Shown piece after piece: positions 13,507 to 50,372 of a stretch of DNA of 54,484 nt. Source of the DNA: Escherichia coli (GTDB lineage Bacteria; Pseudomonadota; Gammaproteobacteria; Enterobacterales; Enterobacteriaceae). How positions within the stretch are numbered: the first letter of the stretch is position 1; the number at the start of each line of letters is the position of its first letter. The DNA lies in assembly GCF_003334355.1 (NCBI RefSeq), contig NZ_QOWP01000027.1. One strand, written 5' to 3'. The translations under genes were made by a program, and so were the position numbers. Below the pieces are notes generated by a model. That model ran no database searches, had not been told where the DNA came from, and saw only the letters and a program-made list of their open reading frames with translations.

Positions 13507-14259
13507 TCAGCCCAGCCCCAGCCCGCGAATGCTGGTGGTGAGCGTGCCGATGGTCAGCGACCAGCCGTCGATCAGCACAAACAGCATCAGCTTAAAGGGC
13601 AGCGAAACGATCAGCGGCGACAGCATCATCATCCCCATCGCCATCAATACGCTTGCGACAATCAGGTCGATAACCAGAAACGGGATGTAAATCATAAAGC
13701 CAATCTGGAAGGCGGTTTTCAGCTCGCTCAACACATAGGCGGGCACCACGATAGAGAGATCCTGATCGGCGGCATTGCCCTTCGCGCCGCCGATGGTCAT
13801 GATTTGCGCCATCGCTTTTTTGTCGGTCTGCGCCAGCATAAAGCGTTTCAGCGGCGTCGCGGCGGTGCTTAACGCATCGGTCAGGGTTATCTGATCATTT
13901 TCAAACGGTACTACTGCGTGGTCGTAAATATTGAGCCAGATGGGGCGCATCACCAGCATGGTGAGGGAGAGCGCAATGCCAATCAGAATACGGTTCGGCG
14001 GCGTTTGTTGCAGCCCCAACGCCTGGCGCAGCAGCGACAGCACGATAATAAAGCGCGTAAAGCAGGTCATCATCAGCACCATCGTCGGCAGCAAACCGAC
14101 GAGGGTCATCAGAATCAGCACCTGGATTTTGACGCTGTACTCCTGTGTGTTGCCGTGGGTGACCACGTTAAGCAGCGCAATATCGCCGCCCTGGGCCAAC
14201 GCCAGCGGCGCAAGCGCCAGCAGCCCAAGGCCCAGCGTCAGTTGAGTGCGGCGTTTCAT
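13507..14259 (-). CDS. lfiP: Flagellar export apparatus protein, FliP homologue
   Basis: 250 aa, signal peptide plus FliP signature (…MTLVGLLPTMVLMMTCFTRFIIVLSLLRQALGLQQTPPN…). Confidence 0.92.
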   Translation of the reverse strand: MKRRTQLTLGLGLLALAPLALAQGGDIALLNVVTHGNTQEYSVKIQVLILMTLVGLLPTMVLMMTCFTRFIIVLSLLRQALGLQQTPPNRILIGIALSLTMLVMRPIWLNIYDHAVVPFENDQITLTDALSTAATPLKRFMLAQTDKKAMAQIMTIGGAKGNAADQDLSIVVPAYVLSELKTAFQIGFMIYIPFLVIDLIVASVLMAMGMMMLSPLIVSLPFKLMLFVLIDGWSLTIGTLTTSIRGLGLG

Positions 14260-14627
14260 GGTGCCAGGTCGTTGATATCGCGGGTGTTAAATTCCAGCAC
14301 GCGCAGGCCGTACTTCTCGTTGACCACCACCACTTCCGCTTTGCCCAGCAGGATATTGTTCACTTTAATATCCAGCGGCTCCCCGGCGAGTTTATCCAGC
14401 TCAATCACCGTGTCGTCGTCGATGTTAAGGAGGTCGGCTAACATGATCTCCACCGACGACACTTCCAGCGTTAAGGTCACCGGAATGCGTTTTAGCAGCG
14501 TCATCGAGTCGGAAAAACGGTCTTCCAGGCGGGTGACCAGCGTTTCAGCGTCGGCGGATTTTGCGACAGGCGCAACTTCATCGGTGAGGCCAAAATCCCC
14601 GGCTAAAATATCTTCTTGCTTACTCAT
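14256..14627 (-). CDS. lfiN: Flagellar C-ring protein, FliN homologue
   Basis: C-terminal SpoA/FliN domain (…IPVTLTLEVSSVEIMLADLLNIDDDTVIEL…); stop overlaps lfiP ATG (ATGA); start ATG 14627 (MSKQ) or 14639 (MRIAMSKQ). No FliO gene between lfiN and lfiP. Confidence 0.85.
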   Translation of the reverse strand: MSKQEDILAGDFGLTDEVAPVAKSADAETLVTRLEDRFSDSMTLLKRIPVTLTLEVSSVEIMLADLLNIDDDTVIELDKLAGEPLDIKVNNILLGKAEVVVVNEKYGLRVLEFNTRDINDLAP

Positions 14628-15471
14628 GGCTATTCTCATTTTTGCCCGCCAGCTCCGACAAAAACAGTTTGTCTTTGTCTTCCACAATCAGGGCGCTAAA
14701 TAATTCAGATTGCCCAATCGCCACCGGGAACGTTTCTCCCAGCGAGATGGGTAAAATATCCCCGGCTTTTATCTGCGTGAGATCCGCGACATTCATCGAT
14801 AGCTCGGCGATTTTGACGTTCAGGGTCAGCGGCAGGGAGCGGATGATCTCTTTAATCAGGGCCGGTTTATTGACGGATTTCGCCACCTGCTGCGGTTTAC
14901 TGTGCTCGCTGTGGCGGATCAGATTTAAAATAAAATCGGTGTGGGCGTCGTCGAGCAAAATACGAAAACTGCTCTCTTCATCGCCCGCGAGGGTAAAGGT
15001 TAATTGATACGCCCAGTGGGTAATTACCGTGCTGCTGTCCAGCTTTAATTTCAGCGCAATACCGGAGGTTTGCAGATTAAATATCAGCGTGCAGATATCC
15101 AGCGCGAGTCGGTTTTTTAACCGCGTTTCGGTTTTGGTCGGCAGCCCGTTATGCGCTTTCGCCTCTTCAAGAGAGGACTCCAGACCATAAAAATTGCCCA
15201 GCAGCATTAACAGCAAGGAGCGATCGATATCAAACGCCAGATGCCCGACCTGGGAAACCATCATTTCGGCGTTTTTATTAATAATATCCATTTCGCAGCC
15301 AATCTTTTTTAAGGTGATATTGCTGCGATGCTTTTTGAGAAAGTAGCTGCCCAGATGCGAATCAATCACGTCAAAATTCCCCGTAAACAGGGTCGGCAGG
15401 CGATGGTAGGGGCGTCCGAGCCGATTACCTTCTAATTTAAAGATGCCTGGCGTTTTACTGTACTTCAGCAT
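14620..15471 (-). CDS. lfiM: Flagellar C-ring switch protein, FliM homologue
   Basis: 283 aa, first gene of minus-strand operon lfiMNPQR-lfhBA; FliM-like size and position; ATG at 15471. Confidence 0.87.
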   Translation of the reverse strand: MLKYSKTPGIFKLEGNRLGRPYHRLPTLFTGNFDVIDSHLGSYFLKKHRSNITLKKIGCEMDIINKNAEMMVSQVGHLAFDIDRSLLLMLLGNFYGLESSLEEAKAHNGLPTKTETRLKNRLALDICTLIFNLQTSGIALKLKLDSSTVITHWAYQLTFTLAGDEESSFRILLDDAHTDFILNLIRHSEHSKPQQVAKSVNKPALIKEIIRSLPLTLNVKIAELSMNVADLTQIKAGDILPISLGETFPVAIGQSELFSALIVEDKDKLFLSELAGKNENSHE

Positions 15472-49403: not shown

Positions 49404-49636
49404 ATCCAGCTTGCAATGAAAATAACGCCCGCCTGGTATGTGCGCGTTTTCTTATTCCACAAACTGCAAGGAGGTAAATCATGACAAATCCTTTATCAAT
49501 GACTCTTTGCAGACCTTTCCAGGATTAATTCTTTTTTTCTTGCCCTGGATTCGTCTGCCATTTCCTGATTTTTATATTTATATACTCTAAATAATTCGAG
49601 TCGCAGTACATGCAACTTGAAGTATGACGAGTATAA

Positions 49637-49903
49637 ATGGAATGGTACATGGGCAAATATATTCGTCCCTTATCCGATGCGGTATTTACCATCGCATCTG
49701 ATGACCTGTGGATCGAGAGTTTAGCGATCCAACAATTACACACCACGGCAAATTTACCCAACATGCAGCGCGTAGTGGGGATGCCAGATTTACACCCCGG
49801 ACGCGGCTACCCGATTGGCGCAGCGTTCTTCTCTGTTGGTCGTTTTTACCCGACAAGACGTCGCTGTAACGGTGCTGGAAACAGAAACGGGCCGCTACTC
49901 TGA
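49637..49903 (+). pseudogene. RtcB-family RNA ligase 5' fragment (ykfJ-like remnant)
   Basis: First about 66 residues match RtcB N-terminus including …[21 protein letters not shown]…; reading frame then degenerates and stops after 88 codons. Confidence 0.7.
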
Positions 49904-50372
49904 CACGCTGCGTTCGGCGCTGGTTTCTCTGGATGGCGATAACGCATGGGCATTAAGCGAAAGCTGGTGTGGCACTATTCAGTGGATTTGTCCGAGTCCG
50001 TATCGGCCTCATCATGGGCGCAAAAACTGGTTTCTGGGCATTGGGCGTTTTACCGCTGATGAGAAGGAACAATCGGATGCAATCCGTTATGAGACGCTGC
50101 GTTCGTCGGGGCCGGGCGGTCAACATGTCAATAAAACCGACTCGGCGGTACGCGCCACGCATCTGGCATCCGGTATTAGCGTGAAGGTTCAGTCAGAGCG
50201 CAGCCAGCATGCTAACAAACGGCTGGCGCGATTGCTGATTGCCTGGAAGCTGGAGCAGCAGCAACAGGAAAATAGCGCGGCGCTGAAATCGCAGCGGCGA
50301 ATGTTCCATCACCAGATTGAACGTGGCAACCCGCGACGGACATTTACAGGGATGGCTTTTATCGAAGGATAA
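49815..50372 (+). pseudogene. prfH: Peptide chain release factor homologue PrfH, 5'-truncated
   Basis: C-terminal GGQ domain present (…[26 protein letters not shown]…) but N-terminal part missing; no proper start context; overlaps RtcB fragment. Confidence 0.75.

What the first reader, a model, noticed from the sequence alone, without database searches (positions are those of the whole stretch)
49481..49528. Possible 15-codon small ORF with a strong Shine-Dalgarno in the yafP/rtcB-remnant intergenic region
AAGGAGGT is followed 7 nt later by ATG ACA AAT CCT TTA TCA ATG ACT CTT TGC AGA CCT TTC CAG GAT TAA (MTNPLSMTLCRPFQD). It could be a small protein or leader peptide, or simply the orphaned translation initiation region of the decayed downstream operon.
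Basis: seen in the sequence. Interest (0 to 1): 0.25.

Follow-up and report, generated by a model that had tools for sequence, protein, structure and literature searches.

The report
Leader ORF of ribosome-repair operon
The 15-codon ORF is real: it is the unannotated E. coli counterpart of a leader peptide known in Pseudomonas aeruginosa (PA5471.1) that senses stalled ribosomes and switches on the rtcB2-prfH ribosome-repair operon, which in this strain has decayed to pseudogenes.

Summary

It is not a chance ORF. A 13-17 codon ORF with a strong Shine-Dalgarno precedes rtcB2-prfH in 79 of 81 loci from 27 clades of Gamma- and Betaproteobacteria. Frame, start, stop position and a nucleotide box CTTTGC(A/G)G are conserved, and a sigma70-type promoter lies upstream.

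The P. aeruginosa copy (MIQFSTLCRLRLA) matches what papers report for PA5471.1, the leader of armZ (an RtcB homologue)-PA5470 (prfH). There, full leader translation keeps the operon off and ribosome stalling turns it on.

Three helices show compensatory change:
- SD region with codons 8-11
- codons 10-15 with a downstream arm
- that arm with the rtcB2 ribosome-binding site

The amino-acid sequence is not under protein-like selection, so translation matters, not the peptide.

In this window the element is a relic. The -10 carries a G at its otherwise invariant second position, an ERIC repeat sits in the last hairpin loop, and rtcB2 and prfH are truncated.

No E. coli genome annotates the ORF, and I found no paper describing it outside Pseudomonas. 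I class it as a new member of a known kind, of moderate interest.

The parts
49411..49416 (+). -35 hexamer TTGCAA of the leader/rtcB2-prfH promoter
   Evidence: TTGnnn, a spacer of 16-18 nt (17 nt in 69) and TAnnnT are found at the equivalent place in 74 of 79 loci.
49434..49439 (+). -10 hexamer, here TGGTAT, with a G at the second position, which is A in all 74 promoter-bearing loci. A GC-rich discriminator GTGCGCG follows at 49440-49446.
   Evidence: Escherichia strains with an intact operon (HS, 04-00955, L004-L006) have TAGTAT. The window and K-12, both with the deletion, have TGGTAT; EC14 and 720632 share the window's sequence and the deletion.
49464..49475 (+). Segment 1 (CTGCAAGGAG, 49464-49473), overlapping the leader Shine-Dalgarno AAGGAGGT (49468-49475)
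   Evidence: Pairs with segment 2 in the MFE folds of 6 species and of the window. Cognate arms pair better than non-cognate ones in 19 of 27 clades, p=7e-4.
49481..49528 (+). Leader ORF, 15 codons plus TAA (MTNPLSMTLCRPFQD); orthologue of P. aeruginosa PA5471.1
   Evidence: The first ATG after the SD is in frame with the Cys codon in 79/79 loci (distances 21, 24, 27 or 30 nt). The stop lies 18 nt after the Cys codon in 74/79, as TAA (49), TGA (19) or TAG (11). The P. aeruginosa PA7 leader MIQFSTLCRLRLA matches the published Q3, F4 and 13 codons.
49503..49514 (+). Segment 2 (CTCTTTGCAGAC; codons 8-12, T-L-C-R). It pairs with segment 1 or with segment 3, but not both.
   Evidence: CTTTGC(A/G)G is nearly invariant as nucleotides. 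The clinical P. aeruginosa deletion of nt 16-22 (ACCCTTT) that makes armZ constitutive falls in this box (mapped on L068).
49519..49548 (+). Upper stem CCAGG (49519-49523) / CCTGG (49544-49548), with the leader stop codon in its apical loop
   Evidence: (helix 2, 4 of 5 pairs with changes on both sides).
49553..49565 (+). Segment 3 (GTCTGCCATTTCC). GTCTGC pairs with GCAGAC of segment 2; CCATTTCC pairs with the rtcB2 ribosome-binding site.
   Evidence: The lower stem is 92% paired, with compensatory changes in 3 of 6 pairs. The cognate test is positive in 25/27 clades (2:3) and 23/27 (3:4), both p<=5e-5.
49576..49634 (.). Short-form ERIC (enterobacterial repetitive intergenic consensus) insertion in the loop between segments 3 and 4; ends approximate
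   Evidence: Absent in strain 04-00955 and 72 nt longer in K-12. Extra copies occur elsewhere in E. coli genomes. Partial isrH hit in Rfam. It folds on itself inside the 3:4 loop. The name ERIC rests on my knowledge of its sequence.
49639..49651 (+). Segment 4: rtcB2 ribosome-binding region GGAATGG (49639-49645) and start codon ATG (49649-49651)
   Evidence: Paired with 49556-49564 in the window MFE. GGA[A/T]TGG covaries with CCA[T/A]..CC across genera.
49649..49852 (+). rtcB2 remnant (ykfJ), residues 1-68 of 379
   Evidence: PRK09588 / TIGR03073 release_rtcB; annotated as a pseudogene in identical strains and in K-12.
49866..50372 (+). prfH remnant, residues 36-200 of 200
   Evidence: TIGR03072 release_prfH; pseudogene.

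Best explanation
The ORF is the translated leader of the rtcB2-prfH operon, which repairs and rescues damaged ribosomes. It is orthologous to the P. aeruginosa leader peptide PA5471.1.

Proposed mechanism. A sigma70-type promoter makes a transcript with four pairing segments:
- 1: the leader's own Shine-Dalgarno region
- 2: leader codons 8-12
- 3: an arm downstream of the leader stop
- 4: the rtcB2 ribosome-binding site

When ribosomes read the leader through to its stop, they cover segment 2. Segment 3 then pairs with segment 4 and hides the rtcB2 start, so the operon is off. When ribosomes are held at or near the leader start (decoding damage, antibiotics, uncharged or defective tRNA), or terminate early, segment 2 stays free. 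It pairs with segment 3, the rtcB2 start is less occluded, and rtcB2-prfH is expressed. What matters is the act of translation, not the peptide sequence.

Shown here: ORF, promoter and helix conservation with compensatory changes, and the orthology.
Shown by others, in P. aeruginosa only: full translation gives off; stalling, an early stop or deletion of the leader gives on.
Inferred: that the E. coli-type leader acts by occluding the ribosome-binding site, and that damaged ribosomes are the natural signal.

In this window the system is vestigial: mutated -10, an ERIC insertion, and truncated rtcB2 and prfH.
For: Conservation:
- An SD+ORF precedes rtcB2 in 79 of 81 loci from 27 clades; prfH follows rtcB2 in 79/80.
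- Frame, length and stop position are conserved, and all three stop codons are used.
- The promoter is conserved in 74/79 loci.

Structure:
- Cognate arms pair better than non-cognate arms for all three helices.
- On a plain MAFFT alignment 79.6% of cells pair against 75.1% when shuffled (0/500). 63 cells have a change on both sides against 28 (0/500). Slid controls give 17-51%. RNAalifold independently finds the 2:3 lower stem.
- MFE folds of six genera and of the window give 1:2 plus 3:4; blocking the leader start gives 2:3.
- The free energy needed to open the rtcB2 RBS averages 12.3 kcal/mol. It falls to 10.3 with a ribosome on leader codon 1 (lower in 21/23 clades) and is 12.7-12.8 with a ribosome on the Cys or last codon.

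Orthology and genetics:
- The L068 leader MIQFSTLCRLRLA fits the published PA5471.1 (13 codons, Q3 with C at nt 7, F4 with C at nt 12). The published behaviour is in PMC13041342, PMC12057347 and PMC3516279.
- E. coli K-12 ykfJ is reported to be inducible by 4-azaleucine.
Against: - There is no direct evidence of translation in E. coli. The ORF is absent from the one ribosome-profiling supplement I could search and from all RefSeq annotations.
- The predicted accessibility change is modest (about 2 kcal/mol), and in several Pseudomonas clades 2:3 and 3:4 barely overlap.
- The P. aeruginosa literature describes the output as transcription termination, not RBS occlusion. A simple scan finds no intrinsic terminator in either leader, so the output step is unsettled.
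- My thermodynamics put the untranslated RNA in the off state. As I recall the abstract of Morita 2009 (paper not held, unverified), a start-codon mutant is constitutively on.
- Support for helix 1:2 is weaker than for the other two, because both arms are nearly invariant.
Confidence: 0.78

Rival explanations
1. It encodes a small protein that acts in trans, for example by binding RtcB2, PrfH or the ribosome.
For: Strong SD, intact ORF, a conserved L-C-R/G motif and constant length.
Against: Substitutions are 28 synonymous to 66 non-synonymous, against 23% synonymous expected, and do not differ from the two other frames. They are spread evenly over codon positions. The conserved residues coincide with a nucleotide box kept as CTT-TGC-AGG in GC-rich Pseudomonas, and with helix arms that covary. 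There are 53 different peptides among 63 ORF sequences. In P. aeruginosa, Q3K and F4L substitutions leave basal expression unchanged.
Confidence: 0.05
2. It is an untranslated structured RNA (a riboswitch-like element or sRNA), and the ORF is incidental.
For: Conservation is at nucleotide level, three helices covary, and there is no coding-type substitution pattern.
Against: The first ATG after a near-perfect SD is in frame in 79/79 loci, across four length classes that are all multiples of three. The stop sits at a fixed position while its identity changes (TAA, TGA, TAG), and stops in the other frames scatter. An amber codon at position 3 changes regulation in P. aeruginosa, and the leader mRNA co-purifies with ribosomes. 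No Rfam family matches.
Confidence: 0.07
3. It is a leader ORF as described, but the regulated step is premature transcription termination (intrinsic or Rho-dependent), as proposed for P. aeruginosa, rather than occlusion of the rtcB2 ribosome-binding site.
For: The P. aeruginosa literature reports transcript-level induction and a 3:4 'terminator'. The spacer is pyrimidine-rich. An occluded RBS would also expose untranslated rtcB2 mRNA to Rho (inference).
Against: No stem followed by a U-tract is found in the E. coli or PA7 leader. The conserved 3:4 helix ends 3 nt before the rtcB2 ATG and contains its SD-like GGA(A/T)TGG. The review itself says the attenuation model needs confirmation.
Confidence: 0.3
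4. It is a chance ORF next to a fortuitous SD-like octamer, or simply the 3' UTR of the dinB-yafNOP operon.
For: The octamer occurs twice in the window against 0.78 expected, which is not significant. The ORF lies 78 nt after yafP.
Against: It is conserved with rtcB2 in genomes where yafP is absent and the upstream gene differs (Salmonella; 27 clades). It has its own conserved promoter.
Confidence: 0.01

Closest known systems
PA5471.1 leader peptide of the P. aeruginosa armZ (PA5471)-PA5470 (prfH) operon (Morita et al. 2009, J Bacteriol 191:4966; summarised in PMC12057347, PMC13041342, PMC3516279)
   Same: Orthologous position upstream of an RtcB-family gene followed by prfH. Short SD-led ORF with the same ...TLCR.... 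end. The same nucleotide boxes: GCAA(A)GGAGG, CTTTGCAGG, CTGCC and GGATTGG-ATG. The published rule that full translation gives off and stalling or an early stop gives on agrees in direction with the fold calculations here.
   Different: - E. coli has 15 codons, not 13.
- The spacer to rtcB2 is about 65 nt in ERIC-free E. coli, against about 220-290 nt in P. aeruginosa.
- In P. aeruginosa the RtcB homologue has been recruited as the MexZ anti-repressor; in E. coli it is the 16S rRNA ligase.
- The published output is transcription attenuation, whereas here the conserved last helix occludes the ribosome-binding site.
- The copy in this window is attached to pseudogenes.
Classical four-segment leader-peptide attenuators (trpL type) and translation-attenuation leaders of erm/cat resistance genes (my knowledge of these systems)
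   Same: Topology of 1:2 and 3:4 against 2:3, read out by the position of a ribosome on a short leader ORF. As in ermC, the last helix hides the downstream SD.
   Different: There are no tandem regulatory codons for one amino acid and no U-tract terminator. No conserved drug-dependent arrest peptide is seen. Segment 1 is the leader's own SD rather than leader coding sequence.
RtcB2-PrfH ribosome rescue and repair module (PMC9223846, PMC9304027, PMC13166195, PMC12829566)
   Same: This is the operon controlled by the leader. In strains with intact genes it protects against colicin E3 cleavage of 16S rRNA.
   Different: These papers express the genes from foreign promoters and do not mention a leader, upstream ORF or native regulation.

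Membership tests
PA5471.1-type leader of rtcB2(armZ)-prfH operons | Lies immediately upstream of, and on the same strand as, a release-factor-H-coupled RtcB gene followed by prfH | tested here: met
   The window has RtcB residues 1-68 (TIGR03073/PRK09588) and PrfH residues 36-200 (TIGR03072) downstream. Intact genes occupy the same place in HS and 04-00955. prfH follows rtcB2 in 79/80 loci.
PA5471.1-type leader of rtcB2(armZ)-prfH operons | A short SD-led ORF (13 codons in P. aeruginosa) alignable with PA5471.1 | tested here: met
   The ORFs are 13-17 codons and end ...(T/S)LC(R/G)xxxx-stop. The same boxes are present in E. coli and in the P. aeruginosa PA7 leader MIQFSTLCRLRLA. The identity of L068 with PA5471.1 is inferred from the published Q3, F4, nt 7 and nt 12.
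PA5471.1-type leader of rtcB2(armZ)-prfH operons | Alternative RNA pairings whose choice depends on leader translation | tested here: met
   Three helices, two of them mutually exclusive, have compensatory support. RBS opening energy depends on ribosome position. This is computational only.
PA5471.1-type leader of rtcB2(armZ)-prfH operons | The downstream gene is induced by ribosome-targeting agents or ribosome stalling | not testable with these tools
   Literature only: K-12 ykfJ is inducible by 4-azaleucine (PMC3516279 citing Morita 2006).
PA5471.1-type leader of rtcB2(armZ)-prfH operons | The output is a transcription terminator formed by segments 3 and 4 | tested here: inconclusive
   No intrinsic-terminator-like site in the E. 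coli or P. aeruginosa PA7 leader. The conserved 3:4 helix overlaps the rtcB2 RBS. Rho-dependent termination was not testable. I could not read Morita 2009 to check that its segments are the same as mine.
Functional small protein | Amino-acid sequence under purifying selection (excess of synonymous change, third-position bias) | tested here: not met
   28 synonymous to 66 non-synonymous changes; changes at codon positions 1/2/3 are 28/31/35; the other frames look the same.
trpL-type amino-acid attenuator | A run of codons for the regulating amino acid, and a U-tract terminator | tested here: not met
   No conserved codon run in 53 peptides; no terminator.
Curated cis-regulatory RNA family (Rfam 15) | A match at or near a family's gathering score | tested here: not met
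   Only sub-threshold hits were found. These are isrH in the window and V_AS5 in Salmonella (both lie outside the leader), and STnc350 on the opposite strand at 21 bits against a gathering score of 60.

The most novel reading that the evidence does not exclude
Across Gamma- and Betaproteobacteria the leader is the built-in damage sensor of the ribosome-repair module. Ribosomes with a crippled decoding centre (colicin E3-type cleavage, aminoglycosides) still bind the near-perfect SD but linger on the first codons. This unmasks the rtcB2 ribosome-binding site directly, by translational control rather than terminator control, so that intact ribosomes make the repair enzymes. PrfH could then release ribosomes stalled on its own leader and close a negative feedback loop. 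On this reading the MexXY/ArmZ induction pathway of P. aeruginosa is a late co-option of this ancestral circuit.
Probability: 0.35. Interest if true: 0.65.

Novelty: new member of a known kind. Interest (0 to 1): 0.45.

Why it matters
Two literatures have not been joined. Work on RtcB2-PrfH (2022-2026) shows that the operon repairs colicin-E3-cut ribosomes but says nothing about how it is switched on. Work on P. aeruginosa MexXY knows the PA5471.1 leader but treats it as a peculiarity of that efflux pathway ('appears to be unique to MexXY', PMC12057347).

The comparison here indicates that the leader, its promoter and its RNA switch belong to the ancestral rtcB2-prfH operon. They are present in Escherichia, Salmonella, Klebsiella, Proteus, Providencia, Serratia, many Pseudomonas and some Betaproteobacteria.

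This gives a directly testable hypothesis for how cells detect damaged or stalled ribosomes and induce repair. It also adds an unannotated translated ORF to E. coli, identical in 98.5% of the matching records from 5,426 complete genomes. For this particular window the practical consequence is small, because the operon is dead.

Tried and rejected
- **Rfam scans** of the window and the Salmonella leader found no family. The weak STnc350 hit on the minus strand is absent from the Salmonella leader, so I dropped it.
- **Terminator reading.** I first took the stretch after yafP for the dinB-operon terminator. Comparison shows it is the conserved promoter.
- **Literature look-ups.** The peptide string occurs in no held paper. 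The Stringer 2021 supplement has no entry at MG1655 253239-253286. INRI-seq covers only annotated starts. Weaver 2019 and Morita 2009 are not held. A 2015 riboswitch-entropy paper lists a neighbouring 100-nt window at rank 98, which is not informative.
- **Synonymous/non-synonymous counts** gave no coding signal, so I rejected the 'small protein' reading.
- **Mean unpaired probability of the rtcB2 RBS** changed little with ribosome position. I replaced it with the opening free energy, which shows a consistent but modest effect.
- **RNAalifold on the MAFFT alignment** recovered only 4 pairs, because the variable loops are misaligned. I therefore used anchored blocks and a cognate-versus-non-cognate duplex test.
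- **Mimicry of the 16S rRNA 3' end or the colicin E3 site.** I compared the boxes by eye with the 16S sequence as I remember it and found no convincing resemblance; I did not pursue it.
- **Simple promoter scan.** It misses the promoter (8 of 12 matches), so the promoter call rests on conservation alone.

Full report
**Observation.** AAGGAGGT lies at 49468-49475, the spacer AAATC follows (5 nt, not 7), ATG is at 49481 and TAA at 49526-49528. The ORF has 15 sense codons, MTNPLSMTLCRPFQD. It sits 78 nt after the yafP stop (49403) and 168 nt before the ATG of the RtcB remnant (49649). NCBIfam confirms the flanks: YafP, RtcB residues 1-68 of 379 (the release-factor-H-coupled RtcB family) and PrfH residues 36-200. 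The octamer alone is not beyond chance (2 in the window, 0.78 expected). K-12 MG1655 annotates nothing between yafP and ykfJ.

**Within E. coli.** The intergenic region is found in 5424 of 5426 complete genomes. The 61 nt of SD plus ORF are identical in 5315 of 5398 matching records and are never annotated. The neighbouring spacer varies far more. Strains differ in three other ways:
- Some have intact rtcB2-prfH and no repeat (04-00955).
- Some have a short ERIC (enterobacterial repetitive intergenic consensus) insertion (HS and the window).
- K-12 has a version of the insertion that is 72 nt longer.

So the ORF region is the native upstream region of rtcB2, not part of the repeat and not rtcB2's own initiation region, which is kept at 49639-49651.

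**Other taxa.** I built an RtcB2 alignment from database hits and used it to fetch 80 loci from species-representative genomes. prfH follows rtcB2 in 79 of them; the other locus is cut by a contig end. E. coli-like sequence upstream of rtcB2 is detectable by BLASTN as far as Proteus, Providencia, Budvicia and, for the SD box, Pseudomonas.

In 79 of 81 loci (including strain 04-00955) a 13-17 codon ORF with a strong SD, mostly AAGGAGGT, precedes rtcB2. The leader stop lies 60-101 nt upstream of the rtcB2 ATG in most loci, and up to 286 nt where there are insertions. Examples:
- Salmonella: MTLYSLNALCRHFQH
- Klebsiella: MNTDFQNALCRPSQE
- Proteus: MTTTNMNTLCGQSQK
- many Pseudomonas: MQQLITLCRSRLA
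- Cupriavidus: MKQSMHLCRPRQN
- Tahibacter: MKLVTCLCRLSLG

Only the two Achromobacter loci lack it.

**Is it translated, and is the peptide what matters?** I took the first ATG after the SD without regard to frame. It is in frame with the conserved Cys codon in 79/79 loci, at distances of 21, 24, 27 or 30 nt. The first in-frame stop lies 18 nt after the Cys codon in 74/79 loci, and it is TAA in 49, TGA in 19 and TAG in 11. Stops in the other two frames scatter widely. A stop whose position is fixed while its identity changes, together with indels in multiples of three, argues for translation.

Substitutions along a minimum spanning tree of the 63 distinct ORFs are 28 synonymous to 66 non-synonymous. 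They are spread evenly over codon positions and look the same in the other frames. The conserved L-C-R/G is encoded by an almost invariant nucleotide box, CTTTGC(A/G)G. It is kept as CTT-TGC-AGG even in GC-rich Pseudomonas; by my knowledge of codon usage these are disfavoured codons there. So the ORF is conserved as something to be translated, not as a protein.

**Promoter.** Aligning the loci at the SD reveals TTGnnn (mostly TTGCAA), a 17-nt spacer, TAnnnT and a GC-rich discriminator in 74 of 79 loci. The -10 ends 22-39 nt before the SD region. In the window these are TTGCAA at 49411-49416 and TGGTAT at 49434-49439. The second base of the -10 is A in all 74 other promoters and in Escherichia strains with an intact operon (TAGTAT). 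It is G in the window and K-12; strains EC14 and 720632 are identical to the window across this region, and all four carry the rtcB2-prfH deletion.

**RNA structure.** Minimum-free-energy folds of six genera and of the window agree on two helices:
- Segment 1 (CTGCAAGGAG, the leader SD) pairs with segment 2 (CTCTTTGCAG, codons 8-11).
- Segment 3 (CCATTTCC region) pairs with segment 4 (GGAATGG, just before the rtcB2 ATG).

If the leader start is blocked, as by a ribosome, segment 2 (GCAGAC, then CCAGG) pairs with segment 3 (CCTGG, then GTCTGC), with the leader stop in the apical loop.

Anchored blocks show compensatory changes:
- 2:3 helix: GCAGAC/GTCTGC, GCAGAT/ATCTGC, GCAGGC/GCCTGC, GCGGAC/GTCCGC, GCGGGC/GCCCGC.
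- 3:4 helix: GGAATGG with CCAT(T/C)TCC, GGATTGG with CCAAT(T)CC or CCACATCC, GGATGGG with CCACATCC.
- Providencia has a different pair of arms that still covers the ribosome-binding site.

I tested whether each lineage's own arms pair better than arms swapped between 27 clades:

| helix | own arms (kcal/mol) | swapped arms (kcal/mol) | clades favouring own | permutation p |
|---|---|---|---|---|
| 2:3 | -20.3 | -15.8 | 25/27 | <=5e-5 |
| 3:4 | -10.4 | -9.2 | 23/27 | <=5e-5 |
| 1:2 | -13.3 | -12.5 | 19/27 | 7e-4 |

On an unfitted MAFFT alignment, the 2:3 and 3:4 pairs are 79.6% paired against 75.1% in shuffles (0/500). 63 cells carry a change on both sides against 28 (0/500), and pairing falls to 17-51% when the partners are slid. 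RNAalifold independently finds the 2:3 lower stem.

Helices 1:2 and 2:3 share GCAG and cannot coexist. Helices 2:3 and 3:4 overlap by a variable amount: clearly in Escherichia, little in some Pseudomonas.

**Direction of the switch.** The free energy needed to open the rtcB2 ribosome-binding site (-14 to +5) averages 12.3 kcal/mol. With a ribosome footprint on leader codon 1 it is 10.3, lower in 21 of 23 clades. With the footprint on the Cys codon or the last codon it is 12.7-12.8. The window copy behaves the same way (11.3, 9.6, 9.9), and the ERIC insert folds on itself inside the 3:4 loop. The effect is consistent in sign and depends on ribosome position, but it is modest. An earlier measure, mean unpaired probability, hardly moved.

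**The link to what is known.** A PGAP note on the E. coli pseudogene ('mutations in this gene result in a compromised ability for drug-inducible mexXY expression') led me to P. aeruginosa armZ (PA5471, an RtcB-like protein) and PA5470 (prfH). That operon has a 13-codon leader peptide, PA5471.1, described by Morita et al. in 2009.

According to later papers:
- The leader and armZ share a constitutive promoter.
- Complete translation of the leader lets segments 3 and 4 form a structure that blocks armZ expression.
- Expression is turned on by ribosome stalling (ribosome-targeting antibiotics, suhB or cca mutants), by an amber codon at position 3, or by deletion of the leader.
- Q3K and F4L substitutions do not change basal expression.
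- A clinical deletion of nt 16-22 makes armZ constitutive.

The published details (13 codons, Gln at codon 3 with C at nt 7, Phe at codon 4 with C at nt 12) fit the leader I found in P. aeruginosa PA7 (L068): ATG ATT CAG TTC TCT ACC CTT TGC AGG CTG CGC CTG GCC TAA. Nucleotides 16-22 of that sequence are ACCCTTT, which is the conserved segment 2 box. The E. coli ORF is therefore the orthologue of PA5471.1. The published rule (read-through gives off; stalling or early stop gives on) has the same direction as my calculations. K-12 ykfJ is also reported to be inducible by the translation poison 4-azaleucine.

**What differs or stays open.**
- *Output step.* The literature calls the P. aeruginosa mechanism transcription attenuation, and the 2025 review says this still needs confirmation. 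A simple scan finds no stem followed by a U-tract in either the E. coli or the PA7 leader. The helix conserved across all clades ends 3 nt before the rtcB2 ATG. I therefore favour occlusion of the ribosome-binding site as the conserved output, possibly followed by Rho-dependent polarity. This is inference.
- *Untranslated state.* My folds predict that the untranslated RNA is off. My unverified recollection of the Morita 2009 abstract is that a start-codon mutant is constitutively on. A 30S subunit parked on the strong SD could reconcile the two, but this is unresolved.
- *Translation in E. coli.* There is no direct evidence. The one ribosome-profiling supplement I could search has no entry, and other key papers are not held.
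- *Prior description.* The RtcB2-PrfH papers do not mention a leader or native regulation. No held paper contains the peptide or links prfH with a leader outside Pseudomonas. Rfam has no family for it. Morita 2009 may have noted the E. coli homologue; I could not check.

**Verdict.** The element is the regulatory leader of an operon that has decayed in this strain. It is a new, unannotated member of a known kind. The wider point is that the stalling-sensing leader belongs to the ancestral ribosome-repair operon in many Proteobacteria and probably acts on the rtcB2 ribosome-binding site. That is moderately interesting and directly testable.

Noticed in passing
window 49434-49439: The -10 hexamer of the conserved leader promoter reads TGGTAT here and in K-12; strains EC14 and 720632 are identical to the window over 49404-49660. 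All four carry the rtcB2-prfH deletion. Escherichia strains with an intact operon (HS, 04-00955, L004-L006) have TAGTAT, and the second position is A in all 74 promoter-bearing loci. It looks like a promoter-down change that accompanies pseudogenisation.
   Followed up: partly
window about 49576-49634; L001 (K-12); L003 (04-00955): An ERIC repeat sits exactly in the loop between segment 3 and the rtcB2 ribosome-binding site. It occurs in three states among strains: absent, short (57-59 nt) and 72 nt longer. It folds on itself, so the predicted 3:4 helix survives. Similar repeat insertions interrupt the leader spacer in Klebsiella spallanzanii (L014), Serratia sp. Ag1 (L079) and Enterobacteriaceae bacterium B14 (L066).
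   Followed up: partly
L084 2446-2649 (E. coli EC14; equals window 49649-49852): PGAP attaches a P. aeruginosa armZ note (drug-inducible mexXY expression) to the E. coli rtcB2 pseudogene. It is odd as an E. coli annotation, but it gave the lead to PA5471.1.
   Followed up: yes
L002 (E. coli HS) 996-2500; L086 (Salmonella) 1117-2500: The yafN-yafO toxin-antitoxin pair is absent in E. coli HS, where dinB overlaps yafP directly. In Salmonella both yafNO and yafP are absent, and an ERIC-like repeat (partial V_AS5 hit in Rfam) lies between dinB and the leader promoter. rtcB2-prfH thus keeps its place next to dinB and pepD while the genes in between come and go.
   Followed up: no
L046 and L059 (Pseudomonas MAGs); L076 and L083 (Achromobacter): In two Pseudomonas MAGs the leader's stop is displaced (30 nt after the Cys codon instead of 18) and the spacer is more than 200 nt, which suggests an insertion at the end of the leader. 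The two Achromobacter loci have no recognisable leader ORF or segment 2 box.
   Followed up: no
loci L004-L083, just downstream of the -10: The promoter has a GC-rich discriminator (GCGCGCC, ACGCGCA, GTGCGCG) like those of rRNA and ribosomal-protein promoters, followed by a pyrimidine-rich 5' UTR. This hints at stringent or growth-rate control of the repair operon. Not tested.
   Followed up: no
window 14427-14434: The only other AAGGAGGT in the window lies inside a 261-codon ORF (13918-14703, + strand), with an ATG 8 nt downstream. It could be an internal start or nothing.
   Followed up: no
window 49415-49487, minus strand: A weak Rfam match to the Salmonella sRNA STnc350 (21 bits against a gathering score of 60, E=0.15) covers the promoter and SD region on the opposite strand. 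The Salmonella leader region gives no such hit, so it is probably chance.
   Followed up: partly
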